Below, piece by piece: positions 2,861-59,172 of a stretch of DNA of 64,000 bases. This DNA comes from a candidate division FCPU426 bacterium (GTDB taxonomy: Bacteria; Oederibacteriota; Muellerivitia; Muellerivitales; Muellerivitaceae), in assembly GCA_963719085.1 (NCBI GenBank), contig CAVRAL010000005.1, forward strand, positions 32,001 to 96,000. Reading direction: 5' to 3'. Position 1 is the stretch's first letter. Every line of letters starts with the position of its first letter. Under the pieces are notes generated by a model. The model had not been told where the DNA came from. It did no database searches and worked only from the letters and a program-made list of their open reading frames with translations. The position numbers and the translations under genes are program-made.

Positions 2861-2888
2861 TGCACTTATTATCACATCAACTCTTTTT

Positions 2889-4214: not shown

Positions 4215-7200
4215 TTACACGCGAAATCGTCTAAAAACAAAGAAAAATGTAATTATAAAATAAATTAATGAGTGATTAATTTACTTAGGTGCAACAGCCG
4301 GACCCTGGCGGGACGAAGGTGATTGTGTATTTGTCTAAAAAATAAAAAATTAATTTAATTTTAAAATAAATATAATTTACTTCTTGAAGAATTCGTTCTT
4401 CACTTTGACATCGTTTATGTAATATTAATGGATCTGGTGGTGATGTACATGTTAATCGTTCAACATCATTAAAAATGACATTAACACCTCCAGTACTTGA
4501 TTGAAGAACATCACCCTAATAAATCAAAAAAATAAATTTATATTTAAAGTAAAAGAATAATTTACTTTAACAAAATCAGTAACAATTTCGCCTTGTGCAT
4601 CAAGATTTTGATGTGTTAAAACATATTTTGTTGTTCGCACTATTTCATTTTTAGCTGGTGCTTGTTGAGTAGACACTTTTTTATGAAATTTTGGTTGAAG
4701 AAGAGTCTCTAGATTAAACCAAAACATTTATTTTACAAGAATAACTATCTCTTTACCTGTTTGAATTGTTCCTTGTGGTCTATGTTCAAGCCACACTTCA
4801 CGTTAATGAACGTGATCTTCGATGTTGTTGTCTTGGATGACCAACAAGAACATGTCCATTAGTATTTTCAATATTCATTGGTTCAGTATTTGGAATATTC
4901 GGACGACGATGAGGACTTGTATTTTTTGATGTTGGTGTTTTACAATTTTGAGATATAATCATTTCAACACGATGATATTGTTGTTGTTGATTTTGATAAA
5001 CATGATCCATTGGACTTCTAGAAAAAATAATCTCATCATAAAATGTTTTTGTTTTTAAAAATATTCTTTACTCGATATTAACATGTGATGATGGTGATTT
5101 AATTGGAATTAAAAATTGTTCATTTGTAATGTTATTATTTGCAGCCATTGATCGAATAATATTTAATTTATCATCATGTTGTCGTTCAAGTTCACGCATT
5201 TGAATTTCTTTATTTTTTATTTCATTAATCTTAAGAAAAAAAAGTTGAAATAAGATTTTTAAATAAATAAATGATTTACATATTGTTGTTCAATTTCATT
5301 TAATTTTAATTTTTAATTTATTTTCAAAATCAATTTTATCTTTTCGTCGTTCAGATTTTAAAGATTTTATTTCATTATTTCGTTCTTCAATTTGAGATTT
5401 TAATGTTTTATTTTCACGTTCAATTTGATTTGTTGTTTTATATAAATCATTTTGAGATTTTTCTAATAATTTAATACGTGTTTGTAAATGACGAATTGTT
5501 TTTGTTTGTTGATCATTTTCTTTTGATAAATCATCATGATCAGATATTGTTGAATCATAATCAGATGCTAATTCAAGTGTAAATTTACGTAAATAATTCT
5601 TGTTGTTCTTGAATAAGCTATTAATGAACAAAGAAAATAAATTAGATTATAAGAAAAATAAAGATTTTTACCATATTAAATCGTTGTCGTTCATCCATAC
5701 GTCGTCGTAAATGTTCTTGAAGAATTAAAATAGCTTCATCATCACCAGCTCCATCCAATAGAGAATATTCAAGTGATGGAAATGGAGCAATTAATGCTTG
5801 AGCACTAGAATGAGAAATAAAAAGTTTTTTCAATAAAATATTCTCTTATTTACTTGAATTCAGTAAAAAGAATTGGTTGTGCATTTTGTTGTTGTTGATT
5901 ATCAATTTCACGTAAAGCCCCAACACGAGTGAATTTTGGTGGAACTGGTGGAGGTGGAGGTGGTAAAGCACGTGGTACCATAACATCTTTAGTTAATTCA
6001 CCAAATTTAAGTGCATGCTAAAAGTACAATTATTCAAATAAATAAAAATAATAAAATAAATATTTACTTGAATTTCTTCATAACCATCCACAGTTGGATT
6101 AACACAAAGAATCATTCGTATTCGACCTTCACCATCAAAATAACTTTTAAAAAATGATGTTAATTTTGATTCACGATATGGTACCATCTATATAATAAAA
6201 TCTTGTATTTTTTTCAATTAGAAAAAAGAAATAAAGTTTACCTTGCTTGTACCTTGTGCTTGATTTTCTCGTAAAGTTTCAAAACATTGTCGAAGAACCA
6301 TTAATGATGAATTAATATTACCTAAATCAAAATTTGAATCAATCACGAAATTTCAAATAATTCACTTACTTGCTTCTTTAACTCGTTCACCAACAGTTTT
6401 AGCTCGATTAACACGTTCACTTCCAGCTAAATCAACTAAATGAATTGTACTAATTGTTAAATCATCTTTTGTCTATTATAAAAAAAAAACAATATTTTAT
6501 AAAAATATAAAAAATAAAACATACAAGTGATGTTGGTGGAATATCATTATGAAATTGAACAAGACGCATTGATAGAACACTATGTGATCGACTTGATTCA
6601 GTATTAATTGTGTATGAGCAATACGACGTCGTTTTAAACCCATATTAAGTAATTCAATTGCTTCTTCACTTGATACGTACTTCAATTTCTTTAACATCTT
6701 TTATATATGGTCGACCACGATTATCTTCACGTAATTGTTTCGATTGTGGTGCTCTAAAAAACAAAAAGATTTATTTCCTTGTTTAAAATATATCTAATCT
6801 TACTTATTAAGAATATCATCATCGAATAAATCATAAATATAATTATTATAAATTTCAACAAATGTAACAAAGACAAAATATGAACAATTTTCATTTAATT
6901 GTGGATTCCATAATGATGTCGTATCTAATGTACGACCATTTGATGAATCAGGAATTCTATATAATGATATTATTTGAATTATAAAAATGATGAAAGAGTT
7001 TATCTTACTTTCCACGTTGATTATTACCATTTCTAGCCATTTGAATTTCTTTTCGTTGTCGTTCAAGTAAAATATCAGCTTCACTTTGAATTTCATAACC
7101 ATTTTGACGATCAGAACGAAGAAGCTAAAACAAATCAATATAAAGAAAACATCAAAAATTCGAATCAAACTCACATATTTCTTTCCAAGATGTGATCCAA

Positions 7201-7841
7201 TTGAATTAAAAATAACATCAAATGAACGTGGAATTAAACCAGGATTATTCAATGGTCCCATCATTGTATAAGTTTTTCCTGAACCTGTAATTCCATATGT
7301 AAATAATACACCTAAATTTTTTCATAAATAGAATTAAATGTTTACTTTAAGAAATAAAAACAACATACTGTTTTTTCCTTGAATAAGATCATCAAGGAGA
7401 GGTATAGCTAATTCTTTAAAAGCAGCTGATTGTGAAACATCATCAGTAAGAATATGAGTAAATTCATAACGAGACTAAACAAAAAAAATTTTAATAGGAT
7501 AAAAGTATCAAAGACGAAATGACTTACTTCTCTAATTTGTCCATTTTTAGCATTCTAGAAAAAATATAATCAAGTATTCGAATAATGAACTATTAAAATA
7601 AATCCTGACCTCAGATGAGAAGAGAGTGAGTTCTGTTGAACTTGAAACTTTGAACATGATGATGAATTATCTGTTTCTTGATCATTATTATTATCTTTTG
7701 GTGGTCGTAAACGACAGAAGACCTTTGTTAAAATAAATAAAAATAATTAATTATCAAAATTCGATAGAAATTATTCACTTCAACAGGACAACCACCACCA
7801 TTGGCAAGTAAATCTCGCGAGCCAAGATGTGTTTTCTTCAT
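4215..7841 (-). pseudogene. KIF23: Kinesin-6 KIF23/MKLP1-like multi-exon gene with at least 5 frameshifts as assembled (pseudogene or consensus errors)
   Basis: Exons give VFCRLRP, GITGSGKTYT, the kinesin-6 insert [43 protein letters not shown], a coiled coil, RRSRS, and the MKLP1 tail KYVLTHQNLDAQGEIVTDFVK|GDV; short GT-AG introns; start codon uncertain. Confidence 0.88.
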
Positions 7842-9059
7842 TGGAGTGCGTGATATTATTAAAATCAAAACAATTTATATAGACGAAAAGAAACAAAAGG
7901 AAAATAAAAGTTCGAATAAAGAATGGAGAAAATTGGTCGAGGTACTATATCTATATTGATCGTGATCGTCAGTCATAAGTGATCGAAGAACGTATCTATT
8001 GGTTAATTCATACAAAAGACAAAACGTCATTACTATATATCAATTATGCTCTGTTTCAGAGAATATAATGAAGAAAACTATATTCAAACTTAAAATATAT
8101 AACATGCGACTGTCGTAAAACCCAATCTGGAATAATTACTTAATAGATGTCGTCGCTAATAACAACTTTTTTTTTAACCATCTTTCTCATAAAGTACTTA
8201 ACCAGGGTCACAACATCTCCTGATTTTTTAGACTTTTCTTCTGATAAAAAATCTTCTGGATCTAAAACTGCTTTTTAATGTTTTCTCCTAATTTTTATTC
8301 TTTTCATTCTCGATTTTGAAAATTGAAATCGAGTTTCACTTGTTAAATTTGTCACAGTCATTCATTGGACATTGTGCAGAACAAAGCGTTGATGGACAGA
8401 AAACACCAGGCTCAAACCCTTTGAACAGGAGTATCGCTCTAAAATTTTTATAGTGCCTGGAACATTTGCGTACATAATCTACCGATCAGATTTTTTAGTT
8501 GTTTTCGAGCTTCGTTATCAATTTGACAAATTGTATCAATTGAAGTTACCGTAACGGATATAGCTCAACAAACTCCAGGAATCGAATAACGATAAAAACG
8601 CTGTGTAATCTCTCTGACTTAAATACTTACTGTAGCATGCACAGCCTACATCAAAACTAAGCAGTGTCAATAAAGAAGCACTGGCTCCTAATGTCACGGA
8701 TTTTTCCTCACCAGTTCTTACTTGAAAATGGATTATCATGAGCAAACTAGTTATCGGTCTGAAATTCGTGATAGGCTGGTTCAAAATCAACTCCAGCTAA
8801 CCTAGCCGAGGTTAACAGAGCCCGACTTATGAGTCAACTCATCAAAATAGAGAAACCATGGGATGATATTGGCCGAGCATCTTATGTGATATGCACTCAT
8901 CATTCGAGTAGGTAGTCGAAAAAAATGTCTGCACGCAACTTTTGTGATCAGTTGACCATTTTAAAAAATGTCTTTCAATGTGTTTTGTTCCAGGGGCACT
9001 TTTCAGAAAGAAAGTTTTAAAGAAATACGAAAAGAAAACGCAATTATATATTTGTTGAC

Positions 9060-9169
9060 TAGGGATGCAACGGTGACGGTGAGCCACCGGTCACCGGTTC
9101 ACCGATCCACCGGTCTCACCGGTCTATCGGTGGACCGGTGGACCGGTGACCGTCACCGTTGCATGCCTA
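9060..9169. mobile_element. hAT-type MITE, 110 bp, same family as 3645-3723
   Basis: Same TIRs; perfect 8-bp TSD ttgttgac at 9052-9059 and 9170-9177. Confidence 0.9.
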
Positions 9170-9769
9170 TTGTTGACCTTTTCCTATTCGAGTTTGACCA
9201 ATTTAACTCCACGCACGTTATCTTTCTTTTTTTTCTATAGCTATTGCTATTGTCTGCTCTTCAATATATATCTTCCGACAATCAGAATTTTCTCGTTTTT
9301 CTTTTAGATTTTATAGAACAACCCAATTCTTCATTGGTGATCAAAATCATTTCTCAAACAGAACACAGACAAGAAGTTCTTCTCTTTATTCAAAGAATTT
9401 TCTCTTCAAATTCAGTCTAAGATCAAATGCATGCCGATAAAAGACAACAATCCTAGCGGACACTGTGAATTCTAGCCGCGTTTATATTTTGTTACTTTCT
9501 TACAAGGCGTCGTCGAAACATGAAGAACAATAACCGTCTCACTTGTCTTTAGTGCGCTTCCTATCTTGATGGAGGGTTCACTCGAGTGAAACGGTCAACT
9601 AAGGAAAGATATATATATATATATATGTATATTTGTCGTTCGTCCATTTATCTTCAGACTAATAAAACAAGCACGACGTTCATTGTTGTTGTTATTCAGC
9701 TCGATATAAGAGGAAGAAGGAAGGCGTTCAACTGTGTACATCTAATTTTCGTTCATGAGAGAAAGAACA

Positions 9770-10997
9770 ATGTCGACCACCTTCGAATCACTCTGCAACG
9801 ACGTTCTCATGATCATCTTCGAGTATATCGGCGAAGTGAATCTCCTCCTCGACGGTTTTCTCAACCTGAACCAACGGCTGAACTCTGTTCTTTTCGACCA
9901 CCGCCTTCGCACATTCTGGCTGATCATTGCCAGTGACAGTGGTGCTGAGAAGCGAGATATACACTGTCTGAAACAACATCTCCGCTCACTCTGGCTAATT
10001 CAGAAGAACTGGTCACCTTCGTTATTTATTACGACGGTGCGTCTGCCCTCTCTTTGCCACCTGGTCATCTATGGACTCAACTTCGATAGTGTCAAGCTAT
10101 TATTTGCCAAAGCTGAGGATCACTACCCGAATCTAAAGTATTTAGTTGTGAACAACGCAGGTGAGTAGCCGAGACTCTCTCCCATTTTTAACTTAGTTCG
10201 AACCCAGCTCTTTCTCCATAGGTTACACGACAGAATACAAAGATTACTCCGAAACCGGCGCCGCCCTCTCAACTATCGTGTCCAATGCTCTTCAGCTAAA
10301 ATCACTGGCGTCACTTGAACTCACAGTTTACCGCAATCCATGCATTCTGAATATACCTGTCTTGGAACAACAGCAACAGCAATTCACTCTCCAGTACTTG
10401 ACTCTGACGGACCGATTCAAGATCGATAATCTCTTTCTCCTCTGCCAACAGCTACCTTTTCTCAAGCGACTCCAGCTGCGAGCTCAGCTGGGAGACGATG
10501 TATCTAATAATTTTACTCATATTCGTTCCGTGTTTTCGCTGAAGTGCAAGGTAAAACTGAACCTTGAACTAGTCTGGTTGAAGGCGCAGTTCAATCTACT
10601 CACACTGCTCCTTACGAACATGCCGAATCTCTACGACCTATACATTTTTGGCACTACTGCTCTTGACACTGTTCTTCTGATGAAGAAGTACCTTAGTGCA
10701 TACTACTGGAATGACACGCTGCTGGCACAGTTACCACGACTGAGAAAGCTAAAAGTGGATCTGAAGGCATATGGTATGTTGCTGCCTGCTGATGAAGAAA
10801 TGCTCGAACGGGAAATCATCGCTCCGTTTCGAAACGAACAGGAAAAATACCAGAAATTTCTTCTACGATTGTACCCTCGTTGTCTGGGAGAAGGTTATTT
10901 AAGCTACCTTCATTTACAATCTCAACAGAAGACTACTACAACTGGAAGAGACAGCTGGGTTGACGGCGACTACGTGCCAGATATATATATCGGATAA
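9770..10997 (+). CDS. F-box-like / LRR-like protein, two exons (intron 10161-10221)
   Basis: N-terminus FESLCNDVLMIIFEYI..GFLNLNQRLN resembles the F-box-like family expanded in bdelloids; removing the gtgag...atag intron joins ORFs 9755..10168 and 10278..10997 in frame. Confidence 0.75.
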
Positions 10998-12138
10998 ATG
11001 TAGTAGCTTTGTAGTGGTATAATTTCTAATAAAAATCAGCAAGAAAACTGTAGTAGTCTGAACTAGTAAAACAGAGAAAATGGTCTAGAGCTCAAGAAGA
11101 CCGCCACAGAAATATTTTTCTCCTTTTACTCTCTGCAAAATAAGTAGTACTGCTTGACATTCAACCTTTCTGATCTGAGAACCAAACTCACTTGATCAGC
11201 GACATAGATTTTAAACGAATGTACTGTTCTCTGGATCTTTATTTCATGATTAACATAAGTGGTTTCAAAAAACACATGGTTTGCAACCATGGCGAATAGG
11301 AACTAAAGCAAACGCTTGTGCTGTGTGGCTATTATTCGGGTGTGAAAAATAAGAATGTGTCGTACAATCGATGCCCACATGAGCAAGACAATGATTGTCT
11401 GCGCTCGACATTAAAGAAAACGAAATGTGAGGTGAGAACCCATGAGTTCGGAGGACGACTGAAAATTAGACAACAACTGCCACTGCTCAAATTTTTCGAA
11501 GCTAAACCAGGAACTTGCTTTCTAATCAACATTTTCTCACTCGATGGACGTATATGGGCCAATGAAGCGAATTCATGCCACAACAGAGACCGTCAGGACG
11601 ACGTTTTTTCTGTCCCGTCCCGTCCCATTTCTCGCAGGAAATTTTCTTGTCACATCGAGATCAATCATCACTTTTTGCTAACACATTGCCTCTCTACTTG
11701 GTTATTGTTTCCTCATTGAAGTCAAATCTTATCATTCATTTTCACACACAACCTGCACAAAAAAAAACTTGTCAATCATTGCAGGAGAAAAGACCATGAC
11801 TTTATATTCCGGGCACATCGAAGAAGATCATTTTCGAGTGAAGCTAATCGAAGGAGCACGGCGCTGTCCACTTCAGATAATGAAGAATCTATCTAGAAAT
11901 AAAATATAAGAAGAATTTTTACTAGCATTATTTAAGTGGATGGACAAAGCTAAATATCACAGATGTTTAACAGCAATAATATCAGTATTCTATTCCTCCT
12001 CCTGTATTAATAGTCATAAGACGTATTTATACATTTCTTTTCTTTCTATAATAAAAGAGCACGTGCACATACACGTGACTTTTTTCTCAATAAATAGTTG
12101 ATAAATAATAATCGATTATTTATTTTCCTCAACGAAAA

Positions 12139-13890
12139 ATGAAAAAGAGCTCAAAATGTTTTATGGATCCAAAGGAAAAATTGGTTAGTCATGAAGCACT
12201 TGAAGAATACAATAAGCAAATACGAAAAAAAAATAATTCTGGTGAAAAACGTTCACCACCACCTGATGATGATGGCATTAACGTGATTAGCATGGATAGT
12301 AATAGTTACCAACTGTCAACACCACAAGAAAAGAAGAAACCAAAGATAAATAGAGATTTATTATTAGTGAATAATTCTCGAAGTGGTAATCAAGGATTGG
12401 TACAACATCAGGCATCAAATGGATATAATAGCAGTAATGTGCAACAAGATGTAATTAATATATCGAACCAAGCACTATCATTTACAATTGAAAATAATTT
12501 CGCACCAGTGAAAATTGAATGCTCACCCCCTTTCCAACATCGTGAAGAAGCAAAAAGATTTATTGTGAATTTTTTCAAGGTTATAAACAATGAATTTCGC
12601 AAAGAATATCCAAAGAATCAATAACCGTTAGGTTTCCATCATTGGTGGATAGATACAGGTGGTAAAACATTATATGGTGTCACGAATGATGTCGATCTTT
12701 ATATCTATTTATGTGAAATCAAAAATTATCGGAACGAATCGACAATATCAAAATCGAACCAAATCCACCGAATCGACTTCCACCCCAAAACACAGTCATT
12801 ATTAAATTTGTATCAAATGAGATATGTAAAGAAGATATATCAAATGAGATCAAAAATTAAATATCATCAAGATTTGTAGTCGACGATATGATGGAAAAAA
12901 TGAGATCAAATAGTCGACATATCAGACTAGCATTGTATCAAAAGGATGACTATATTAAAATTATAAATGATGGTAAAATTGCATTACAAGGACAAATATT
13001 CGAAGTAGAAGAATATCTTCCGCCTCCAAAAATACTCATATGTTTTAAATACAATAAACCTGGTCATGTGAAGAAAACATGTGAATCACCTGTTGAATTA
13101 TGTCGAAGATGTGGCGAAAACAGAAATGATGGTAATAAACATAGTGAATGTAGTATCAAGTGTCGCCATTGTGACGGTGATCATATAGCGACAGACTGTA
13201 AATGTCCCTTGATATTAAAATTTCGGCAAGAACTACTTAATCGATTAAAACTGATCGAAATAAATTACCACCAAATATTAAACTTTTTATTCCGGTCGAC
13301 TGCAGAACGACGGGTGATCGAAATAGATACTTAACTCCTGTGAACAACAACGAAATTCAAAATCTTGTTCCATCTCAGCCTCCAATTATGAATCCATGGT
13401 TTGACAAACAATGCACAAACAATGAAACATCGTCTACAACTGACGCTGGTCAAATAGTGAAGGTCTTGCAAATGAGTTGCAGGAATGTAAAAAGAAGTTT
13501 GAGATTGAATATGTGAAAATCAAAAGTTCCTACGATACGCTAATGAAATCAATTCAGCAAGCATGGCTCATGTTGCAATAACAGGTTCAAGCACAAAACC
13601 AATATTTGTCACTCATGTCAACGATGATCAAGGACAATGTAGTAGCAATGAACCAACTATATAACACCGATAATAACGACATTCAATGAAATTATCAAAA
13701 TAAAGCTTGATGGAATAGACAGAAATAAAATAGAAATGTCTCAAACACTTATCAATTCGACATTAAACCATATGAAGAATTTAAATGATTCATATATTAA
13801 ACATGAGCAAAATCTAACAATGATCATGAATAAACAGGTGACAGTGTTTGAAACGGCAATGGACTCCTTCTTTCCGCCGATTAATGTGAA
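12139..13890 (+). pseudogene. Degenerate gag-like ORF1 of a non-LTR retrotransposon
   Basis: Three zinc-knuckle-like motifs (CFKYNKPGHVKKTC, CRRCG..H..C, CRHCDGDH....C); stops and frameshifts; no ORF2 follows. Confidence 0.7.
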
Positions 13891-14242
13891 GTTGGTACAT
13901 GCGCGGCTTTGTTAAGTTTTTCTGGAGATTGTTATTCAAGCGTAGTTAATTTAACCAATACAGAATATGTAAAAAAATGTACTTCGAATTGGTTCTTTTG
14001 GTCTTATTCACTTAATAATATTATATTAATTATTGAAACAGAACTTACTCAACAACGTCATGATTATACAATTTCTCTTGATAATGAATGTATAGTGGGT
14101 GCTATTTTACATGTTTATCGAATCTTTAATAATCAAGGAACTGATGTAACAACGCGAGATAAAACACTTATAGAATATTCCGATTCAAATTATCAAATTA
14201 TCCGGTTGGTACATAAGTTCTGCACGTTTTTTTGTTCACCAA

Positions 14243-15101
14243 CAAAGGACGGGGGTGCATAAGGTCGAGCTGTTAGTTCATAGTGGAGTCGACGCAGAAT
14301 TTTACGGCGAATCTTTTGGTAATAAAATATAGCCTTTCTGAACGATTCTGGGTCACTTATACTCGAAATACTGAAGATGGGTCATGGCATGCCTCTACGA
14401 GAGCGGTACGAAGGGGCGAATTTTTCGGCGAAAAAAAGTTCAAGAAAACGTTTGAAACATACATTAGTCGACTCAGTTTTTGATGCTGATTCCAAATATG
14501 ATGTTTATTTGAGATCAACTGAGGGTTCTTCTGACCGAAAACCATGGAATATCAGTCAAAAATGTCAAAAATCAGGTCTCAAAAATAGTATGATTAGGAT
14601 TTGGTCAAGTGGCCCACTTTTTTAGATCCTAAAAAGTAGCTAGTTTTGTAGCCCTTCAAAAGCTCTATCGAATGGCATACAAAAGAATTGGGGTGGAAAT
14701 ACAGTTGTAATTCATATATGATAACAAAATGATAAAAATCTTGTTTTTTATACATACTGAACCTATTGTTTGATGTTTTTGACCTATTGGTCAACTTTTT
14801 TGGATTCTTAAAAATAGTCAGTTTTGTAGAGCTTAAAAAGCTCTATCGAATGGTATATAAAAGAAATGGGAAGAAAATATAATTGTAATTCATATATGAT
14901 GAAAAAATGAGAAGAATCTTTGAGAGTGTTATTGACTAATTAATGGGCCCTGATGGCACCTAAAATCTTATAGGAATACATTGTATTTAGCATCAAAATG
15001 ATCAGAAAGTCATAATCTATCAATTTATGTATGAATCAATTAGTTTTAATAGTGAAAATCAAAAGGGGCCAAAATACGTCCTTATGCGCCCCCGCCCTTT
15101 G
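14243..15101. mobile_element. Non-autonomous TIR element, ~860 bp, CAAAG termini
   Basis: caaaggacgggggtgcataagg vs ccttatgcgcccccgccctttg (20/22 inverted match); internal ~100-bp duplication; no TSD seen. Confidence 0.6.
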
Positions 15102-15253
15102 AGAGCATACATGCCACACAGCTGAGAACAGGAAGAAAAAAAATGAACAGTTAATGAGAAAATAAACAAGAAGAATTTCAGCTTTTGTCGAATCAGAGTA
15201 AGTTTCGCCAAACTATAGGATCATGATCAATTTCTACTTCTGAAGAATCATCA

Positions 15254-15898
15254 TCAGTTTCTACTTCGGTAAGACCATGATCGATTTCTACCTCTATAGG
15301 ATCGTCCATAAATTTCTACTTCTATAGAATCATTTAGAGTATTATGATTGTTATGTGAAAAACGACGACCGCCTCCGAGAAAGAATATATCAAAGGCCAC
15401 GCCCAAAAACAGAAGTATCCCAGTACCATGAAGAAATGTATTTACATTATAATAAAAACAATTATCACGATAAATACCATTTGTAATAAAGACGAAGATA
15501 AATACGGAAATGATCCATAAAACCCAGACAAGAATACGACTGTACTTTCCATTCACCGAGAAAAGTTCTCGAATAGTATAGATCTGTAGTATGAATAGGG
15601 CTTATTTCAGATAAATAGGGCTACCCAGAAGATAATAATGAGTGAGACAGTTTTTCAGTTGTTCATGTTTCGTTGATTGTATAGAGCAAAGACAATCTTC
15701 ATAAGGAATACCACAAAGTAAGTCAACTGTAATTAACTTCAAATTTGGCGTCCGCGAACGAAGAACCGATTCATAAGCGTCGTCTATAGTCTTTTGAAAT
15801 GAAGCGTACAAAAAAATGGTGCTGTTAAAAATGATGGAAACAAAAATTTGAGCGCGAAATGATTCTATGGCGAGCGGAATGCCAAATTTGATTTCCAT
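15254..15898 (-). pseudogene. Hypothetical membrane protein interrupted by one in-frame stop
   Basis: ORFs 15602..15898 and 15254..15556 share a frame; hydrophobic segments. Confidence 0.35.
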
Positions 15899-16840
15899 AT
15901 TGATATTTGTTCGATTTCAATAATAATCCAATTGAAAGAGTATTCAACTAATCTAATGAATATATATCTGAAATAAAACATGAAAAATATTTAGAGACGA
16001 TTGATAAAACAAAAGATGCTTTAATGCATCAATCAGAATCAATATTAAACCTAATTCTCATTTATCTTTAGCCTTTTTTCTTGTTTAACGTTCAAATATA
16101 AATCGCATAATGAAAAATAGATAATACGAAAACCAAAATGACAAGAAAAGAATGTTGTTCGCGATCGAATATCGATATTAGCAGAATAATTTGATGTAAA
16201 TATTAAAGGTAATAGCAAAAAAATCTATGAAATTAGTTGAAAAAACTAATTTCGTTTAGAAAATTTCCATCGAAAGAGTAATACATACACACTGATTTTA
16301 TCCAACTCTAGGTGAAAAGACATGCCGTAATTATTCGATTGGAATATATTGTCATCGAACACATTATAAACATAATTCTTATACATTGTAGGAAAAATAA
16401 TAAGAATAAACTATGAGATTTTTATCGAAACTTACTTTTATAGATCCAGATTTATGTAATACTCAAACAACTAATGCACATCTATATTTTATGTTCATTT
16501 CATTTAGATAAAAAATAAGAAGGTTTAACTTGATATATTGACCATCAGTTAACATCTGCTTATTTAAACCGCTTTAGATTGCCTTTAGAATAGAGTTATT
16601 CATCATTTTAAAGATGATAAAACATTAAATGATCGATATCATTGAAAGATATGGTAAAAAACAACGTCAAGAAAAAGAAAAATGGAGCACAATAAATACA
16701 TATTTCGTTTTGAAATATTAACAGATTCTCATCACATTAAAGTGAAGCAGTGTGTATATGTTTCATCATGACAAATATATTTTCATAAGAAAAAGAATGA
16801 AAATGCTTTAAAATTGTTAACGAAGAAATATTATGTAAAA

Positions 16841-17882
16841 CCACCACCAAAATGCCTTCTTCCAATAATTTGGCGGACATGGCGACCGCCTTTTCGTTGT
16901 CGCCCACCATCACGGGAATAATCGGGCTCTCGCCCGCCGGAACCTCAAAACCCAAACCCTTTAACCCATTGCGGATTTTGTCCGCGTTCTTCTTTAGCTT
17001 TTCCACCCGGTCCGGTTCCTCTTCCAAAACTTCCAGGGCGCCTAAAGAGGCCCCGCAAACCGAGGGCGGCAAACCCGTGGTATAGATAAAAGTCCTGGCC
17101 TTATTTAAAAGGATGTCGGTCAGCAATTTAGAAGCGCAGACAAATCCGCCGATGCTTCCCAAGGCCTTGCTATAGGTTCCCATGACCACGGTTGGAAGCG
17201 TCCTCAAGGGAAAATGATGGGCCGCGCCGCGCCCGCCCACCCCTAAAACCCCCGTTCCATGGGCGTCGTCGATTAAAACCATGGCGTCAAACTCAGCGGC
17301 CAAATCCATGATGCCTCCCAAAGGAGCCAAATCCCCGTCCATGCTGAATAAAGAATCGGTCACAATCAAGCGCCTGCGGTAATTGCGGGCGCGTTCCAAA
17401 CAGCTTTTTAAATCATCCAGGTTTAAATGCTCATAGACCAGCAGTTTGGCTTTCGACATCCGGCAAGCGTCGACCAAGCTGGCGTGGTTGAGCCGGTCGC
17501 AAAGCACCGCGTCCTCATCCCCCACCAGCGCCGAAACAGCGGCTAAATTGGCCATATAACCCGTGGGAAAAGCCAGGCAGGATTCGGTCCCTTTAAAGAG
17601 GGCGGTTTTTTCCTCAAGCAAATCATGGATGGGAAAGTTGCCCGACACCAGCCGGGAAGCCTGCGCCCCGGCGCCATAGCGGTCCAAAGCCTGGTGGGAC
17701 ATTTTGAGCACGCGGGGATGGTCGGATAAACCCAGATAATTATTGGCGCAAAAAAGGGTGCAGTCTTGCCCGTTGACGCGGGCTTTCGCGCCGCCCAAAA
17801 GATCGACGGTGCGCAATTGACGCTTCAGGCCTTGGGCTTCCCAGTCCTTCAACTCTTGTTCAAGTTCCGCCATCCAATCCAA
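16841..17882 (-). pseudogene. bioF: 8-amino-7-oxononanoate synthase, 3'-truncated at the bacterial/eukaryotic junction
   Basis: NNYLGL, DRLNHAS, FSMDGD, DDAHG, GTYSKA motifs; family similarity stops after GILVV where IRPPTV is expected, and the ORF reads into AT-rich DNA to 16737. Confidence 0.9.
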
Positions 17883-20319: not shown

Positions 20320-20483
20320 CATGCCCCGGGATTCCATGTTGAATTCATAGATACCCGGAACAATGCCGCTTTTCCCCTAACTACGATATGGAGAAGCGAC
20401 GCGAACGCGGATGAACGCGGATTAGAATAAACATTTGTTTAAGTCGTTTCACATCGGCGTTCATCTGCGTCCATCATTGTAAA
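20320..20483 (-). repeat. GAT-decamer REP-like palindrome carrying the 80-bp double-hairpin insert (20324-20403)
   Basis: Reverse-orientation homolog of the copies at 24540, 53445, 54497 and 59012. Confidence 0.85.
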
Positions 20484-21483: not shown

Positions 21484-21942
21484 TTAGGATTCTTCCAGCC
21501 GAGTCAAAGCCTCTTCCCAGGCTTCTTCCATGCTGACCACTTCCCCCTCGGCGATGACTTCGTGCAGGAAACGCTTTAGTTTCGGCGCGTCCTCGACGTC
21601 CATCTCGTTTTCCCGGAGGACTTCGGTCACATCCTCGAGGGTGATGTGATCGAGAATTTCCTCGGCCTCACCCTGGAAAAGACGGCGAGCCTCTATTTTT
21701 TCGACGGAGCTGTTTTTTTCCTCTTCGTCATCATCCTCGTCATCGTCGTCGTCTTCCTCTTCTTTTTCGGCGCTGTCCAGGTCAATGGTGTCCTCGTCGT
21801 CGTCCGCGTCATCATCCTCTTCGTCGGCCGCCGCGTCGTCATCATCCAAATCCTCGATATCATCTTCATCATGATTGCTTTTACGAGCCAAGATGAACCC
21901 CCCGATTGGATTTAAGAAGGAATAAACCAAACTTCGCCCCAA
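21484..21942 (-). CDS. Highly acidic hypothetical protein (true start probably TTG near 21891)
   Basis: Long D/E tract plus a short helical C-terminal domain. Confidence 0.7.
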   Translation of the reverse strand: MGRSLVYSFLNPIGGFILARKSNHDEDDIEDLDDDDAAADEEDDDADDDEDTIDLDSAEKEEEDDDDDEDDDEEEKNSSVEKIEARRLFQGEAEEILDHITLEDVTEVLRENEMDVEDAPKLKRFLHEVIAEGEVVSMEEAWEEALTRLEES

Positions 21943-21976
21943 TGAATACTTCGACTTTAAAAAGAAGTCAAGTGTT

Positions 21977-23737
21977 TCAACTCGGGGTTAAATAACGGCG
22001 GCGTAAATTTTCCCACACGCTTCGGTCCACCAGCTCCACGCCGGAAATTCGGGCCAGGGCCCGGGCCTCAAGGGAAAAATAAGCCGGGGCCATAAGCAAA
22101 CCACGGTAACAAAACTCGGAGGCCATCACATGGCTGAATTCACTCACGATTTCGCCCGGAATTTGAGTGGTTTCGGGGAACTGTTTGGCCAAAACCGCGA
22201 ATTTCCCCCCGATCACGGGATGGGAATGCTCCACCACGGCGATGACCGCCCCGCCGTCGGCCCGGCGGATTTTGGTGATCCGAAACCCTAAGGTTTTTAA
22301 AAAGCGGTCGGTTTCATGCTCAAAATCCAAAAGCGACATTTGGCTCAAATCCAGCAAAAGTCCCTTTTCATCCCCCAGGTTGAAAACCCAGCGCTGGTCA
22401 TAGGCCGGTTCTTTGAGGAGATCTTGAAGACGGCGCCCATCGATTAAATCCACCGCCATCTTCCGGCCGCTGTTCTTGGCTTCCTCGGTGAATTGGCCTG
22501 TCACCAAATAAATTCCCCGCTTGCAGCCCTCTTCCCGGGCCAACTCATCCAATTCCCGAACCAAGTCCGCGTGGACCTGGGCGTTTTCCGGATATTGCCG
22601 GGCCAGGATCATGAATTGCCCCCCTAAAACAGGGTGCTGAAAATCGGCCAACATTTGAAGCGTGCCGCCGGGTATTTTCTTGACCTTCCCCACCTCAAAT
22701 CCCAATTGGGTCAAAAAGGTCTGGGCCAAAGCCTGGAATTCGGACAAAGCGATCCCGCTGAGGGGTTTCTCCCGCTGAGGGTCTTGGCCGCGCGCGGAAT
22801 CTTCCAGCGGCTTCGCTTCTTCCCATCCATCATCGATTTTTTCTTGCTTAGATTCGTAACGAACCTCCAACCGGGGCGCCTGGGCCTTGATGCGCTCCAA
22901 GATCCTGGCGTTCTTGCTTTCTTCCTCGGGAAAAGCCTCCACTTCCATTCCGTCATTGTAACGCAGGTCAAAAACCGCCAGTCCCTTCAAAAGGTTCGCG
23001 TCCGTCAGATGAACCTGGCGGTATATGTCCCGGGTCGCCCGGACGCTTAAAACAGCCCCATCATAAAACTTGGCCTTCCCGCTGATGAAGTTCATCATGG
23101 CGTCAACAATGATGGCCGGCACATTCTCCGAAATGGAGAATCCGGTTTCCAGGATGTGGGCCGTATCCCGCAAGAGTGAATCCCGGAACAACTTGTAATT
23201 CCCGTTCACATCCCCGCCCATCTCGGCGCGGAACATCCGGGCCGCGAACTTGATCCGGGGCACCGTATCAACGACGTGGATGGACTTTATCGCGACCTCG
23301 GGATATTTTTCCTTTAAGGCCAGCCGGAGCAATTCGTCAAAGTGCCCCATGGCGCCCCGGGCCAAGGATTCCTTGCGGGAAATGATGAGGGCCTGTTGTT
23401 GGCGCGCGGTAATCTTATCCGAGGCCGCCTTTTCTTCCCGGTGGCCCGCCATTTTAAAAAGCACGCCCAAAAATAAAACCGTCACGAAAAAACCAAGCCC
23501 CACCGCGTCCATGGGATTTTGCCCGATGAAATCCCAAACTTCCGAAAAAAATCCGCGGATCATGCCCAGGATAAAGCTGTTGAGCATCATGACGAAAACA
23601 AAGAGGACCAGCCCCGCCATCAAAAGGCCGCCCGCTTCCGCCTCCTGCGGGGTGTGCCCTTGATCCGTCAAATGACGTACCACCCACTGGGCGCCGGGAG
23701 TCTTGAGCAAACGTTCCTTCCATTCCGATGGCAGCAT
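21977..23737 (-). CDS. Membrane-anchored protein with two Mrr-like restriction-endonuclease-fold domains
   Basis: Two N-terminal TM helices; two repeats of LGF....HPV(L/I)GG.F..LA.Q(Y/F)PE...V.E..RG...F..EA....V.L(I/V)D. Confidence 0.72.
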   Translation of the reverse strand: MLPSEWKERLLKTPGAQWVVRHLTDQGHTPQEAEAGGLLMAGLVLFVFVMMLNSFILGMIRGFFSEVWDFIGQNPMDAVGLGFFVTVLFLGVLFKMAGHREEKAASDKITARQQQALIISRKESLARGAMGHFDELLRLALKEKYPEVAIKSIHVVDTVPRIKFAARMFRAEMGGDVNGNYKLFRDSLLRDTAHILETGFSISENVPAIIVDAMMNFISGKAKFYDGAVLSVRATRDIYRQVHLTDANLLKGLAVFDLRYNDGMEVEAFPEEESKNARILERIKAQAPRLEVRYESKQEKIDDGWEEAKPLEDSARGQDPQREKPLSGIALSEFQALAQTFLTQLGFEVGKVKKIPGGTLQMLADFQHPVLGGQFMILARQYPENAQVHADLVRELDELAREEGCKRGIYLVTGQFTEEAKNSGRKMAVDLIDGRRLQDLLKEPAYDQRWVFNLGDEKGLLLDLSQMSLLDFEHETDRFLKTLGFRITKIRRADGGAVIAVVEHSHPVIGGKFAVLAKQFPETTQIPGEIVSEFSHVMASEFCYRGLLMAPAYFSLEARALARISGVELVDRSVWENLRRRYLTPS

Positions 23738-23834: not shown

Positions 23835-24530
23835 ATGGATTACGTCAAACGCCTGGAAAAACTGATGACCCGCCTGAGGGCGCCTCACGGCTGTCCCTGG
23901 GACCGCCGCCAAACCCATAAAAGCTTGAAGCCCTATCTTTTAGAGGAAACCCACGAGGTTTTAGACGCCATCGATAAGGGAAACCCGGCCGATCTGCGCG
24001 AGGAATTGGGCGACCTTTTACTTCAAGTTATTTTCCATTCCCAAATGGCCAAGGAAAAGGGTTCGTTCAATTTTCAGGCCGTGGCCAAGACCATCGGCGA
24101 CAAGCTGATCCGCCGGCATCCCCATGTTTTTCAGCGAGCCGGGGGCGTAAGCCGTAAAATCAAAGACATCAATCAAAAATGGGAGCAACTCAAAAGGCAG
24201 GAAAAACCTGAGCGAAAGTCCGCTCTCGACGGGCTTCCCAAATCCCTGCCCGCGCTTCTCCGGGCCCAGCGGATGCAGGAAAAAATATCGAAAACAGGCA
24301 GACCGAAATCAAGCACCAAGGCGCGGATCGACGAGAACTTGAAAATCTTCAAAAAATCGGCTGCCCACAAAAATCGGAGCCGCCAAGAAAAAGCCCTGGG
24401 CGAAATGCTTTTAAGCCTCACCCGGTGGGCCCAGGCCCGGGGTATCCACGCCGAAATGGCGCTCCAAGCCGCGGCTTCCCGTTACGAGAAGGAGTTCAGG
24501 AAATCCGAGCGGCGGATCAAACACCCCTAA
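23835..24530 (+). CDS. mazG: Nucleoside triphosphate pyrophosphohydrolase MazG
   Basis: GCPWD, EETHE, EELGDLL, KLIRRHPHVF; ggagg RBS; second domain degenerate. Confidence 0.9.
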   Translation: MDYVKRLEKLMTRLRAPHGCPWDRRQTHKSLKPYLLEETHEVLDAIDKGNPADLREELGDLLLQVIFHSQMAKEKGSFNFQAVAKTIGDKLIRRHPHVFQRAGGVSRKIKDINQKWEQLKRQEKPERKSALDGLPKSLPALLRAQRMQEKISKTGRPKSSTKARIDENLKIFKKSAAHKNRSRQEKALGEMLLSLTRWAQARGIHAEMALQAAASRYEKEFRKSERRIKHP

Positions 24531-24539
24531 CAAAAACTA

Positions 24540-24703
24540 TTTAACATTGATAAAAGCGGATGAACACTGATGGGAAAACATTTAATCTTTTGTCCGCCTA
24601 ACATCTGCGTCCGCGTCGCTTCTCCATATGGTAGTTAGGGGAGAGCGACATTGCCCCGGGCATCTTCGACTTCAATAAGGAGGCCCGGGACATCATTGTT
24701 AAA
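24540..24703 (+). repeat. GAT-decamer REP-like palindrome carrying the 79-bp insert (24612-24690)
   Basis: ttaacattgat...atcattgttaa termini; lies between convergent mazG and corA. Confidence 0.88.
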
Positions 24704-24718
24704 ATGCATTTGTCTGAG

Positions 24719-25642
24719 CTATTTTATCTTTTTCACCAGGATCACCCAAATTACCCAGCCCAAAAAGATCATGCCGAGGGTCAAAAGACTGTAGGAAAGC
24801 CATCCGCTGATGGCTTTGGTGGCTTCGCTGTATTCCGACATTCCGCCGATTCCCGCGATCAGATTGAGCGGAAGAAAAACGATGTTGATGATGGTCAGGT
24901 CTTTCAGAAGCCGGTTCATATTGTTATTGATGATGCTGGCCCGGGCGTCCATCAAACCCGAAAGCACCGTGGAATAAATCTCCGCCTGTTTGGCGCATTG
25001 ATGATGCTCAATGATAATGTCTTCCATTAACCCCAATTCCCCCGAAGTGAACCCGATCCTTTCCCATTCTTTATGGAGCTTGGCCAAAACCGTGTTATTG
25101 GCTTCCAGCGCGTCGATGTAGTAAATCAGGTTCTCGCCCAGGGTGAACATCTGCAACAGGTATTGGTTGCCCAACGACGCGTTGAGCTTCTCCTGGATTT
25201 CCCCCGTCAATTGCTTAATGGCCTTCAGATGCCCGAGAAAATGATGGATGGTGTGCTGCAGGATTCGCAGCAAAAGATCCGGAAGCGAGGCCGTTCCTTG
25301 AAATTCTTTTTCCTTAAAAGGAATGACGCCTTCGCTGAGGATGATGGTCAGACGGTTCTTTTGCAGGTACAAACCGATGGAAGAAACTTCCAGTTTAAAT
25401 TGCCGGGCGAAAGACGTGTTATTGGGCCGCTTCCAAATGACGTAAAGATCATCCTGGAGGCACTCCATCCTGGAAATTTCATCCGGATCCAGTGCCGACT
25501 CCAGCGCGTGAGGATCCAAATGGAGATTGCCCAGCAATTCTTTTTTCTCGCCCTCGTCCGGCAGGGTGTAGATCACCACATTGGACTGGGGCCCATCGCA
25601 TTCCATGACCTGGCCGTCTTTTAATTGAAAAAATTCTTTCAT
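24719..25642 (-). CDS. corA: CorA family Mg2+ transporter
   Basis: SALDPDEISR, NNNMNRLLKDLT, GIGGMSE variant motif, two C-terminal TMs. Confidence 0.85.
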   Translation of the reverse strand: MKEFFQLKDGQVMECDGPQSNVVIYTLPDEGEKKELLGNLHLDPHALESALDPDEISRMECLQDDLYVIWKRPNNTSFARQFKLEVSSIGLYLQKNRLTIILSEGVIPFKEKEFQGTASLPDLLLRILQHTIHHFLGHLKAIKQLTGEIQEKLNASLGNQYLLQMFTLGENLIYYIDALEANNTVLAKLHKEWERIGFTSGELGLMEDIIIEHHQCAKQAEIYSTVLSGLMDARASIINNNMNRLLKDLTIINIVFLPLNLIAGIGGMSEYSEATKAISGWLSYSLLTLGMIFLGWVIWVILVKKIK

Positions 25643-30917: not shown

Positions 30918-30970
30918 AAAAATCCTTCCGAATTTGAACCCTTAGTTTACTCCGACTCGGCTGAAACAAA

Positions 30971-31120
30971 ACGGAACGATTCACTTCACAAAACAAGACC
31001 TGTTGAAACATTGATGGAGGCTGATAAAGGCCGATTTTTACGCCTCAAATATCAGCCTTCATCCGCACTTATCATTGTTTCAAAAGCCGGACCTTGCCCA
31101 ATTTGTAAAAAAATAGTTCC
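30971..31120. repeat. Outer GGAAC..GTTCC unit containing an empty GAT-decamer palindrome (31003-31083)
   Basis: Homologous over its length to 36894-37041. Confidence 0.82.
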
Positions 31121-36769: not shown

Positions 36770-36893
36770 CTAGGGTCTCGCTTTCACGGCTTCAGCTTTT
36801 AAGGATCAAAATCAGAAAGACGGACTCACCAAACACTTCGAGTCAATCCGTCTTCCTGATTCAACCTTGCTTCCCAACTACTTTTAAAAAAAA

Positions 36894-37041
36894 ACGGAAT
36901 TATTCACTTCACAACGCAAACCCTATTGAAACATTGATGGAGGCTGATGATGCCGATTTTTGGCACAAATATCAGTCTTCATCGGCATTTATCGTTGTTT
37001 CAAAAGCCGGTCACCGCTCTCTTTGTCAAAGGCATTGTTCC
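36894..37041. repeat. Outer unit containing an empty GAT-decamer palindrome (36926-37003), between pstS and pstC
   Basis: Homolog of 30971-31120. Confidence 0.82.
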
Positions 37042-48613: not shown

Positions 48614-48620
48614 GGCATTC

Positions 48621-49053
48621 AACAATGATGGACGCAGATGAACGCGGATGAGAACTATGGAAATAAATGAAATAACGGAAAAGACGATTGGAGCCGCCTA
48701 TAAAGTGAGCAACGCCTTGGGAGCGGGGTTTTTGGAAAAGGTTTACGAAAACGCCCTTTTCCTTGAATTACAAAAAATTGGTTTGAAAGTTAACCGGCAG
48801 CATCCGATTGTCGTCCGATACGAAGCTAATATTGTCGGGGAATATTTCGCGGATTTGCTAGTCGAGGATAAGGTCCTTATCGAACTAAAGACGGTCGAAA
48901 GTCTCTCGTCTATTCATTCAGCACAATGTTTAAATTATTTGAAAGCAACCGGTTTTAATGTGTGTCTTCTAATGAATTTTGCGGAAAGAAAATTGAAAAT
49001 AAAACGTTTAGTGAATCATTTTTAATCTGCGTTCATCTGCGTTCATCATTGTT
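48621..49053 (+). mobile_element. 29-bp inverted-repeat cassette enclosing the GxxExxY gene
   Basis: aacaatgatggacgcagatgaacgcggat (48621-48649) pairs with atctgcgttcatctgcgttcatcattgtt (49025-49053). Confidence 0.75.
48648..49025 (+). CDS. GxxExxY protein (PD-(D/E)XK nuclease-like fold)
   Basis: LGAGFLEKVYENAL, ADLLVEDKVLIELK, Q.LNYLKA; more AT-rich than its neighbours. Confidence 0.93.
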   Translation: MRTMEINEITEKTIGAAYKVSNALGAGFLEKVYENALFLELQKIGLKVNRQHPIVVRYEANIVGEYFADLLVEDKVLIELKTVESLSSIHSAQCLNYLKATGFNVCLLMNFAERKLKIKRLVNHF

Positions 49054-49073
49054 AATTGAAGGAGTGTTTTATT

Positions 49074-50557: not shown

Positions 50558-50581
50558 CGGACAAGACTCAAAAAGGCGTTT

Positions 50582-53426: not shown

Positions 53427-53636
53427 AAGCGACGGCAAATTCTATTTAACATTGATAAATGCTGATGAAGACTGATGTGTGAAACACAAAAAATCGGGCC
53501 CTATCAGCCTCCGCATCGCTTCCCCATATAGAAGTTAGGGGAGAGCGACATTGTCCCGGGCATCCTCGACTTCGATATAGAGCCCCGGGGCATCAATGTT
53601 TCAATATGTCTTGCTTTGCGAAGTCAATGATTCCGT
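53417..53636 (+). repeat. Fully nested copy: outer unit, GAT-decamer palindrome (53445-53604), 79-bp insert (53512-53590)
   Basis: Right flank is a reverse-complement homolog of the left flanks at 30971 and 36894. Confidence 0.88.
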
Positions 53637-54496: not shown

Positions 54497-54641
54497 TTTA
54501 CAATGATGAACGCTGATAAATCCAGAACCTCTGTTTTAGTCATCTGCGTCCGCGTCGCTTCTCCACATAACAGTTAGAGGAGGGCGACATTGTCCCGGGC
54601 ATCCATGACTGCAATAGGGTGCCCCGGGACATCATTGTAAA
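54497..54641 (+). repeat. GAT-decamer palindrome carrying the 79-bp insert (54551-54629)
   Basis: tttacaatgat...atcattgtaaa termini; lies between convergent genes. Confidence 0.88.
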
Positions 54642-58981: not shown

Positions 58982-59172
58982 ACGGAATTTAAATCCTCTA
59001 ATAAAAATTAATTTCACAATGATAAATGCTGATGAAGACTGATATTTGAAAAACACAAAATCAGACCCCATCAGCCTCCGCATCGCTTTTCCATATAACC
59101 GTTAGGGGAAAGCGATATTGTCCCGGGCATCTTTCACTTTGATATGGAATCCCGGGACATCAATGATTCCGT
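58982..59172 (+). repeat. Nested copy with acggaat..attccgt ends and the 79-bp insert (59079-59157)
   Basis: Closest to the 53417 copy, but ~31 bp shorter on the right between two tcaatg repeats. Confidence 0.85.

What the first reader, a model, noticed from the sequence alone, without database searches (positions are those of the whole stretch)
24612..24690. A 79-80 bp double-hairpin element inserted at the same base of the host palindrome in five places
Seen: copies at 20324-20403 (minus), 24612-24690, 53512-53590, 54551-54629 and 59079-59157, consensus roughly CGCRTCGCTTYYCCAYAT-N4-GTTAGGGGARAGCGAYATTGYCCCGGGCATC-N19-CCCGGGR. Removing it restores the empty arm exactly in two host variants: catctgcgtc|catcattgt (empty at 20462-20480) and atcagcctc|catcaatgtttcaa (reverse complement of the empty arms at 31003 and 36926). 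There is no TSD beyond a 1-nt C ambiguity. Length is fixed while loops diverge, and stems covary (GTCGCT/AGCGAC vs ATCGCT/AGCGAT; GCATCC/GGGTGC). Inference: a site-specific parasite of the repeat, such as a minimal IS200/IS605-type two-hairpin element, an IS110/IS1111-type remnant, or a structured RNA module.
Basis: partly seen in the sequence, partly recalled or inferred. Interest (0 to 1): 0.87.

Follow-up and report, generated by a model that had tools for sequence, protein, structure and literature searches.

The report
Small hairpin insert nested in palindromes
A 79-80-base non-coding piece of DNA that folds into two hairpins sits at the same bond inside the end-repeat of a family of intergenic palindromes in an uncultured bacterium, and most likely is (or was) a tiny site-specific mobile element riding on another mobile element.

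Summary
Five 79-80-nt copies lie at the stated coordinates, against 0 expected by chance. All fold into the same two hairpins, and all lie inside one arm of a palindromic intergenic repeat. In 4 of 5, removing the insert restores an empty arm to the base. The fifth has the same inner junction but an altered outer flank. The claimed stem covariation is not significant.

The "host" is a MITE/REPIN-like family. Its arms are the 39-nt inverted repeats that flank a 122-aa GxxExxY (PDDEXK_3) gene at 48616-49058. Host and insert are both absent from three orthologous sites in a related MAG (about 80% nt identity).

The inserts are 75-86% identical and fixed in length. Their hosts are 56-88% identical and 60-86 nt long. 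One external copy (a spurious ORF, P0122) shows the same junction.

No Rfam, plasmid, phage or species-representative genome match was found. No transposase lies in the window.

Best reading (about 0.45): a non-autonomous insertion that makes no target-site duplication and is sequence-specific, working like IS110-type mini-elements in REPs (MITEPpu9). Membership is untested. Main rival (about 0.3): a long-form module spread passively with its host. IS200/IS605 geometry is not met.

The parts
20324..20403 (-). Insert copy 1 (80 nt, one extra A in hairpin 1). It follows a CATCCGCGTT unit. The outer flank is atypical (CATGAACGCG).
   Evidence: (94.4 bits)
24612..24690 (+). Insert copy 2 (79 nt), between CATCTGCGTC and CATCATTGT
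   Evidence: (102.1 bits)
53512..53590 (+). Insert copy 3 (79 nt), between TATCAGCCTC and CATCAATGT
   Evidence: (99.6 bits)
54551..54629 (+). Insert copy 4 (79 nt), between CATCTGCGTC and CATCATTGT
   Evidence: (94.9 bits)
59079..59157 (+). Insert copy 5 (79 nt), between CATCAGCCTC and CATCAATGA
   Evidence: (99.5 bits)
20404..20480 (.). Host palindrome carrying copy 1 in its left arm. Its right arm (20452-20480) is empty.
   Evidence: similarity to the ends of the GxxExxY element (D10, D14)
24544..24699 (.). Composite: host palindrome (24544-24611 plus 24691-24699) with copy 2. Predicted four-way junction.
53449..53599 (.). Composite: host palindrome with copy 3. Collinear with the composite at 59016-59166.
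   Evidence: (D3: 166 nt, 83%)
54500..54638 (.). Composite: short host palindrome (60 nt without the insert) with copy 4
59016..59166 (.). Composite: host palindrome with copy 5. It lies 60 nt from the 5' end of the cobalamin riboswitch on the minus strand.
31008..31078 (.). Empty host palindrome (GCCTC variant)
36931..36998 (.). Empty host palindrome (GCCTC variant)
48616..49058 (+). Full-length relative of the host: 39-nt inverted repeats (85% complementary) flanking a GxxExxY / PDDEXK_3 gene (ORF 48648-49025; the database form is 122 aa). The whole unit is absent at the orthologous site of L001.
   Evidence: Pfam E 3.8e-40; TIGR04256 E 1.3e-41; P0125
53644..53672 (+). Solitary, degenerate host arm (two units plus TATCACTGC)

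Best explanation
The 79-80-nt unit is a discrete non-coding DNA module with two dissimilar hairpins. It is nested at one fixed bond, 9 nt from the outer end, inside the terminal repeat of a MITE/REPIN-like palindrome family. The full-length relative of that family carries a GxxExxY/PDDEXK_3 gene.

Most likely the unit is a non-autonomous mobile element, or the relic of one. A conservative, sequence-specific recombinase supplied in trans would have inserted it into arms reading ...GCSTC|CATCAWTG without duplicating the target. The best-fitting mechanism is that of IS110/IS1111 elements. There a circular donor recombines with a target at a short shared core, only about 20 bp around the joined ends is needed, and small derivatives such as MITEPpu9 sit in REP palindromes.

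Shown: the anatomy, the exact filled/empty relation, the nesting, and the lineage-specific presence.
Inferred: independent insertion into several host lineages, and the type of enzyme.

After insertion, at least one composite (53512/59079) appears to have spread together with its host.
For: - Exact 79-nt filled/empty difference in two host variants, with no target-site duplication and only a 1-nt C overlap.
- All 5 window copies, plus one external copy read through the spurious ORF P0122, sit directly after a host unit.
- Insert length is fixed at 79-80 nt and pairwise identity is 75-86%. The five hosts, with inserts removed, are 60-86 nt long and 56-88% identical. The host is the more diverged partner in 9 of 10 pairs.
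- In the window, insert position 4 (G or A) tracks the host unit (GCGTC/GCGTT or GCCTC). P0122 combines A with a GCGTC unit. This is inferred from its Cys codon and the following residues.
- All 4 inserts with an intact outer flank lie in the 8 arms of the ...STC|CATCA type; the other 8 arms with a recognisable terminal 9-mer hold none.
- The element's extreme ends are invariant: CGC at the left, CCCGGG at the right.
- There are no terminal inverted repeats.
- Precedents read: MITEPpu9/ssr9 and ISPpu9 in REPs, with transposase-dependent minicircles (PMC12288879; abstract, introduction and part 1 of 2 of the discussion). A 22-bp IS621 donor works with the bridge RNA supplied in trans (PMC11208160; passages).
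- Host and insert are absent from 3 of 3 orthologous intergenic sites in the syntenic MAG contig L001.
Against: - No copy lies outside the host repeat (0 of 5).
- No long version and no transposase of any family occurs among the 50 window ORFs of at least 120 aa that were scanned, out of 74 listed.
- Only 1 nt is shared at the two junctions. ISPpu9 and IS621, the two IS110-family elements read about here, recombine at a 2-nt core.
- The composites at 53512 and 59079 are collinear over 166 nt (83%), and their hosts are each other's closest relatives (88%). That fits passive co-amplification.
- The copies are old (14-25% diverged), so nothing shows present activity.
- No orthologous site has the host present and the insert absent. 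L001 lacks both.
- The higher similarity of the inserts could reflect constraint on the hairpins rather than youth.
- The element pattern found 0 matches in the 185,579 species-representative genomes, so no family context exists.
Confidence: 0.45

Rival explanations
1. Passive module. The 79 nt arose once in one host copy, by any insertion or rearrangement. It is now simply the 'long form' of the palindrome family. It spread through the host's own amplification and was shuffled among host variants by recombination or gene conversion between copies. This would resemble the modular BOX or Correia-type repeats (recalled).
For: - The insert is never found outside the host.
- The 53512 and 59079 composites are collinear, with hosts 88% identical. 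That is closer than either is to the empty hosts of the same variant (79-82%).
- The two host variants differ at only 3 of the 19 flanking positions, about the same divergence as between inserts.
- The host at 24544-24699 is itself a mosaic. Its left arm is 88% identical to that of the 53449 host, while its right arm is the GCGTC variant (D4).
Against: - Hosts of the other filled copies are only 56-75% identical and differ in length by up to 26 nt, while their inserts stay at 75-86% and 79-80 nt.
- Empty arms of both variants match the filled ones to the base. That requires either several precise losses or several precise gains.
- Homology of 9-10 nt on each side is short for gene conversion (inference).
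Confidence: 0.3
2. IS200/IS605-type miniature element (PATE-like). A single-strand 'peel and paste' element with a left-end and a right-end hairpin, inserted 3' of a short target word by a Y1 HUH transposase encoded elsewhere.
For: - Two hairpins fill the element.
- No target-site duplication and no terminal inverted repeats; insertion directly 3' of GCSTY.
- The fold is better kept on one strand: 16 G-U against 4 A-C cells. The plus-strand RNA fold is more stable in 4 of 5 copies.
- PATEs are mentioned in the literature (search listing only).
Against: - The two hairpins have unrelated stems (GTCGCTTCTCC... and CCCGGGCATC...). In the studied members both ends carry similar hairpins bound by the same protein (recalled).
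- The hairpins start 3-4 nt from the left end and finish 0-1 nt from the right end. That leaves no room for the offset cleavage and guide segments of the IS608 model (recalled).
- A 5-nt target word would not confine 5 of 5 copies to one position of one repeat, when similar words recur in the neighbouring units.
- No Y1 transposase lies in the window.
Confidence: 0.1
3. Functional structured module rather than a parasite. A transcribed RNA (small RNA, 3'-UTR stabiliser or protein-binding cloverleaf) or a DNA binding site that selection keeps inside some palindromes.
For: - The composite is predicted to fold as a four-way junction in most of the ten RNA folds (five copies, both strands).
- Hairpin stems are conserved while loops drift, and there is a strand bias towards G-U.
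- All copies are intergenic. By my reading of the ORF map, 4 of 5 lie in sense orientation behind a co-directional gene.
Against: - No Rfam family matches at gathering score or at E up to 10.
- No promoter-like or terminator-like site lies on the element in the two regions scanned.
- Covariation is not above shuffles.
- The related MAG does without the element at 3 of 3 orthologous sites.
- There is no common gene context.
Confidence: 0.1

Closest known systems
MITEPpu9 (ssr9 element) and ISPpu9, IS110 family, in Pseudomonas putida REP/BIME palindromes (PMC12288879; abstract, introduction and part 1 of 2 of the discussion read)
   Same: A small non-coding element without terminal inverted repeats. 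It is inserted at one fixed position of an intergenic palindromic repeat with no real target duplication. It depends on a recombinase encoded elsewhere and occurs in several copies, some tandem or linked to other modules.
   Different: - There is no sequence similarity. At 79-80 nt, the element is short for the sRNA-gene-bearing kind of unit described there.
- Only a 1-nt overlap at the junctions, against the AG dinucleotide of ISPpu9.
- No partner IS, bridge RNA or minicircle has been seen here.
- The target is the terminal repeat of a GxxExxY-associated palindrome, not a Pseudomonas REP.
[quoted passage not shown]
   Same: An element that inserts at a fixed position inside the terminal inverted repeat of another mobile element, that is, a parasite of a parasite.
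   Different: Those are full-length ISs with a recombinase gene and subterminal inverted repeats. Here there is an 80-nt unit with no gene and no inverted termini.
IS200/IS605 miniature derivatives (PATEs)
   Same: Hairpin-rich, no target-site duplication, no terminal inverted repeats, insertion 3' of a short word, one strand favoured.
   Different: The hairpins are unlike each other and flush with the ends. Specificity is far higher than a 4-5-nt word would give. No Y1 transposase has been seen.
REPIN/RAYT and BIME-type mosaic repeats. This comparison applies to the host, not the insert.
   Same: Intergenic palindromic doublets, together with one gene flanked by the same repeat in inverted orientation.
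   Different: The flanked gene is a PD-(D/E)XK (GxxExxY, PF13366) protein of unknown function, not an HUH Y1 transposase. The arms are built from 10-nt units.

Membership tests
IS110/IS1111 family (non-autonomous derivative) | No terminal inverted repeats (IS110 group), no or minimal target duplication, insertion at one specific sequence, often in repeated palindromes | tested here: met
   No pairing or inverted repeat between the termini. Exact 79-nt gap with a 1-nt overlap. 5 of 5 copies in host arms.
IS110/IS1111 family (non-autonomous derivative) | Short core shared by the target and by the joined element ends (AG in ISPpu9, a dinucleotide in IS621) | tested here: inconclusive
   Only a single C is shared at both junctions. 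Core features.
IS110/IS1111 family (non-autonomous derivative) | DEDD/serine recombinase (PF01548, PF02371) and a bridge RNA whose loops match donor and target | not testable with these tools
   None among the 50 window ORFs scanned. The rest of the 226-kb source contig (length) and the genome cannot be reached.
IS200/IS605 (PATE-like) | Similar subterminal hairpins at both ends, set back from the cleavage sites (recalled from the IS608 model) | tested here: not met
   The stems are unrelated, and lie 3-4 nt from the left end and 0-1 nt from the right end.
IS200/IS605 (PATE-like) | Insertion 3' of a short conserved word without duplication | tested here: met
   GCGTC, GCCTC or GCGTT lies directly 5' of all five copies.
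Classical MITE | Terminal inverted repeats and a target-site duplication | tested here: not met
   The insert has neither. The host palindrome does have inverted arms.
Any Rfam RNA family | Covariance-model match | tested here: not met
   At gathering score only the cobalamin riboswitch is found. At E up to 10 over the regions holding three of the copies, there are only chance hits of 16 bits or less.
Modular long form of the host repeat (BOX/BIME-like mosaic) | The module is found only inside the host and is inherited with it | tested here: inconclusive
   Found only inside the host. Co-descent holds for one pair (host 88%) but not for the other nine pairs (host 56-75% against insert 75-86%).

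The most novel reading that the evidence does not exclude
A two-tier selfish system in an uncultured bacterium.

Tier 1: the widespread GxxExxY / PDDEXK_3 proteins, whose function is unknown, are the cargo or the nuclease of a small element bounded by inverted repeats. That element seeds REPIN-like palindromes across intergenic regions. It would be a PD-(D/E)XK analogue of the RAYT/REPIN system.

Tier 2: an 80-nt two-hairpin hyperparasite of an undescribed family specifically recognises the terminal repeat of those palindromes and inserts 9 nt from their end. This turns the hairpin into a four-way junction.
Probability: 0.25. Interest if true: 0.7.

Novelty: new variant of a known kind. Interest (0 to 1): 0.5.

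Why it matters
If the insert is independently mobile, it is a very small example of a site-specific element that makes no target duplication and lives only inside the end-repeat of another repeat family. Its ends would then define the minimal substrate of a recombinase yet to be found. The host side may matter more. A GxxExxY/PF13366 gene lies between the same inverted arms that form the palindromes. The whole unit is missing from the orthologous site of a relative. Together these give a testable lead to the function of a large protein family. At least 7,996 relatives scored E ≤ 0.001, and no function is in print in the searches made here.

Tried and rejected
- Rfam at gathering score over the whole window, and at E up to 10 over 53430-54660 and 24530-24720: no family.
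- blastn ('distant' mode) of the 166-nt composite against the plasmid and phage collections: no match.
- Gapped element pattern scanned in genome contigs: 0 matches.
- The second and last genome scan used the neighbouring PHP-domain protein. It gave 8 loci, of which only L001 is a close relative. L001 holds no host arm and no insert.
- Trick to find further copies through spurious ORFs. A profile of three translated copies was run against 1.84 billion representative proteins. It gave 3 hits. One is real (P0122); the other two are unrelated repeat proteins. Repeating this against the 5.8-billion set returned P0122 only.
- Promoter and terminator consensus scans around three of the copies: nothing on the element.
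- Integron attC-like site, group II intron domains V/VI and tRNA-like structure: considered from the sequence and dropped. There is no match to the recalled consensus features, no Rfam hit and no ARAGORN hit.
- PDB sequence search with the GxxExxY protein: no hit at or below the tool's default 0.001 cut-off (best E 0.1).
- Internal-deletion origin of the host at 20404-20480 from the GxxExxY element. The arms match well (21 of 24 and 26 of 29). The inner 29 nt match only about 59%, so this is suggestive only.

Full report
**Observation**

Five copies of a 79-80-nt sequence lie at 20324-20403 (minus strand), 24612-24690, 53512-53590, 54551-54629 and 59079-59157. A version allowing small gaps matches 5 of 5. 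In both cases 0.00 matches are expected in 100 dinucleotide-preserving shuffles.

I built a covariance model from the five copies. Run over the window and L001 with filters off and E up to 10, it lists 31 matches. These are the five copies at 94-102 bits, their reverse strands, and chance hits of 12 bits or less. blastn-short finds no partial copy elsewhere in the window.

All copies lie in the 50-55% GC part of the window (17-64 kb) and in intergenic DNA.

**Structure**

RNAalifold and single-sequence folds give the same two hairpins in all five copies.
- Hairpin 1: a stem of about 11 bp with a 12-14-nt loop. The edges of the loop are conserved.
- Hairpin 2: CCCGGG paired with CCCGGG, plus a variable inner stem.

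Of 109 pair cells, 95% form standard pairs. However, only one pair in one copy shows a compensatory change, and 420 of 500 shuffles reach the observed covariation score.

The structure does show a strand bias. There are 16 G-U cells against 4 A-C-type cells. The plus-sense RNA fold is the more stable one in 4 of 5 copies.

With the host arms included, the MFE folds of the composites mostly form a four-way junction (five copies, both strands, RNA and DNA parameters). The junction has an outer stem made of the terminal 9-mers, the host's inner hairpin and the two insert hairpins.

**The host**

The 'palindrome' is an inverted repeat. Each arm ends in CATCAWTGT and is preceded by one to three 10-nt units of the form CATCNGCNTY.

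The window holds 16 arms with a recognisable terminal 9-mer. Twelve are empty and four are filled. The atypical arm at 20324 is a seventeenth.

The same arms, as a 39-nt inverted repeat that is 85% complementary, flank a small gene at 48616-49058. Its product matches Pfam PDDEXK_3 (E 3.8e-40) and NCBIfam TIGR04256 'GxxExxY protein' (E 1.3e-41).

Nothing in the searchable literature links this family to a function or to inverted repeats.
- Searches for 'PDDEXK_3', 'GxxExxY', 'PF13366' and 'TIGR04256' gave five distinct papers.
- I read the matching passages of two of them.
- One of these lists the family's function as unknown (PMC3424549).

The host at 20404-20480 resembles the two ends of this element. 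The left 24 nt match at 21 of 24, and the right 58 nt at 74%. That fits an internal-deletion derivative. The inner part is only weakly similar, so I treat this as suggestive.

**Comparison with a relative**

The neighbouring PHP-domain protein retrieved one close relative from the species-representative genomes. This is L001 (DATKNU010000017.1, a MAG labelled only 'bacterium'). It is syntenic with window 46.7-55.4 kb at 67-82% nucleotide identity.

At three orthologous intergenic sites L001 has only 19-99 bp, where the window has much longer inserts:
- the GxxExxY unit (478 bp in the window);
- the composite at 53449-53599;
- the composite at 54500-54638.

L001 contains no host arm and no insert. 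Host and insert are therefore lineage-specific additions, or losses in L001. This comparison cannot separate the insert from its host.

**Is the insert an independent insertion?**

Evidence for:
- Filled and empty arms of both host variants align with a clean 79-nt gap and a 1-nt C ambiguity.
- Inserts are 75-86% identical and fixed in length. The five hosts, with inserts removed, are 60-86 nt long and 56-88% identical. The host is the more diverged partner in 9 of 10 pairs.
- All 4 inserts with an intact outer flank lie in the 8 arms of the ...STC|CATCA type. The other 8 arms with a recognisable terminal 9-mer hold none. The numbers are too small for significance.
- One external copy was recovered indirectly. 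A profile of three translated copies, run against 1.84 billion representative proteins, found P0122. This is a 106-aa spurious ORF that reads through the insert, a GCGTC-type unit, a loop and the opposite arm.
- In P0122 the insert variant with A at position 4 is combined with a GCGTC unit. In the window, A goes only with GCCTC.

Evidence against:
- There is no copy outside the host.
- The composites at 53512 and 59079 are collinear over 166 nt (83%). Their hosts are closer to each other (88%) than to the empty hosts of the same variant (79-82%). This pair most simply descends from one already-filled element.
- The two host variants differ at only 3 of 19 flanking positions.
- The greater conservation of the insert may reflect constraint on its hairpins.

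**Mechanism**

The requirements are these:
- insertion at one bond of a roughly 19-nt sequence;
- no target-site duplication;
- no terminal inverted repeats;
- invariant extreme ends (CGC... and ...CCCGGG).

IS110/IS1111 recombination fits best. These elements excise as circles and insert without scars into specific sequences, often REP palindromes (PMC11208160, passages). [quoted passage not shown] ISPpu9 has a small MITE-like satellite, MITEPpu9, that sits in REPs and forms minicircles of its own (PMC12288879).

What does not fit is the junction overlap. Only one nucleotide is shared, against a dinucleotide in the two elements read about here. Neither a recombinase nor a bridge RNA is in view.

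The IS200/IS605 reading fails on geometry. The two hairpins are unrelated in sequence. They lie 3-4 nt and 0-1 nt from the ends, whereas the studied members have similar hairpins set back from the cleavage sites (recalled).

No Rfam family matches. No promoter-like or terminator-like site lies on the element in the two regions scanned.

**Verdict**

The feature is real and is a discrete nested module.
- About 0.45: a non-autonomous site-specific insertion working like an IS110-type mini-element.
- About 0.3: a long-form module carried passively by its host.
- About 0.1 each: an IS200/IS605-type element, or a functional RNA or DNA module.

It matches nothing in Rfam, the plasmid or phage collections, or the species-representative genomes. 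I rate it a new variant of a known kind.

The more surprising by-product is the link between the palindrome family and a GxxExxY gene.

Noticed in passing
window 48616-49058: A GxxExxY / PDDEXK_3 gene (122-125 aa) lies between 39-nt inverted repeats that are the same arms as the intergenic palindromes. The whole 478-bp stretch is replaced by about 20 bp at the orthologous site of L001. It looks like a REPIN/RAYT-style arrangement with a PD-(D/E)XK protein. No paper found links this family to repeats.
   Followed up: partly
window 1-17000: GC is 20-47% (mostly about 30%), with only 19 ORFs of at least 80 aa overlapping this stretch and no convincing Pfam match among the six of at least 120 aa lying within it that were scanned. 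At about 17000 GC jumps abruptly to 55%, near the 3' end of the aminotransferase ORF 16737-17882. This may be a chimeric join or foreign DNA. No host repeat or insert lies in this part.
   Followed up: partly
window 58778-59172: A cobalamin riboswitch (minus strand, 96.9 bits) precedes a TonB-dependent receptor gene. The composite at 59016-59166 fills most of the 216-nt gap between the riboswitch's 5' end and the upstream periplasmic-binding-protein gene. Any promoter must therefore lie in about 60 nt or inside the element.
   Followed up: no
window 30964-31110 and 36887-37030: The two empty palindromes sit inside a longer repeat of about 147 nt (78-81% identical). Both lie next to phosphate-transport genes (a PHO4-family gene and a pstS-like gene). 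The repeat unit of this variant may extend beyond the palindrome.
   Followed up: no
window 53600-53675 and 59158-59176: A solitary degenerate host arm at 53644-53672. By eye, in the sequence printed, a short stretch (TCAATGATTCCGT) at about 53620-53640 is shared with the flank just right of the 59079 composite. This hints at further mosaic pieces.
   Followed up: no
window 21484-23737: A 586-aa ORF with an Mrr_cat restriction-endonuclease domain lies next to a 152-aa ORF made of acidic D/E-rich short repeats (D1).
   Followed up: no
window 49056-50557: Two adjacent thymidylate-kinase-like genes (238 and 262 aa), conserved in L001.
   Followed up: no
L001 3346-7345: The related MAG carries about 4 kb between the kinase-like gene and the histidine-kinase region. 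The window has only about 200 bp there (50557-50754).
   Followed up: no
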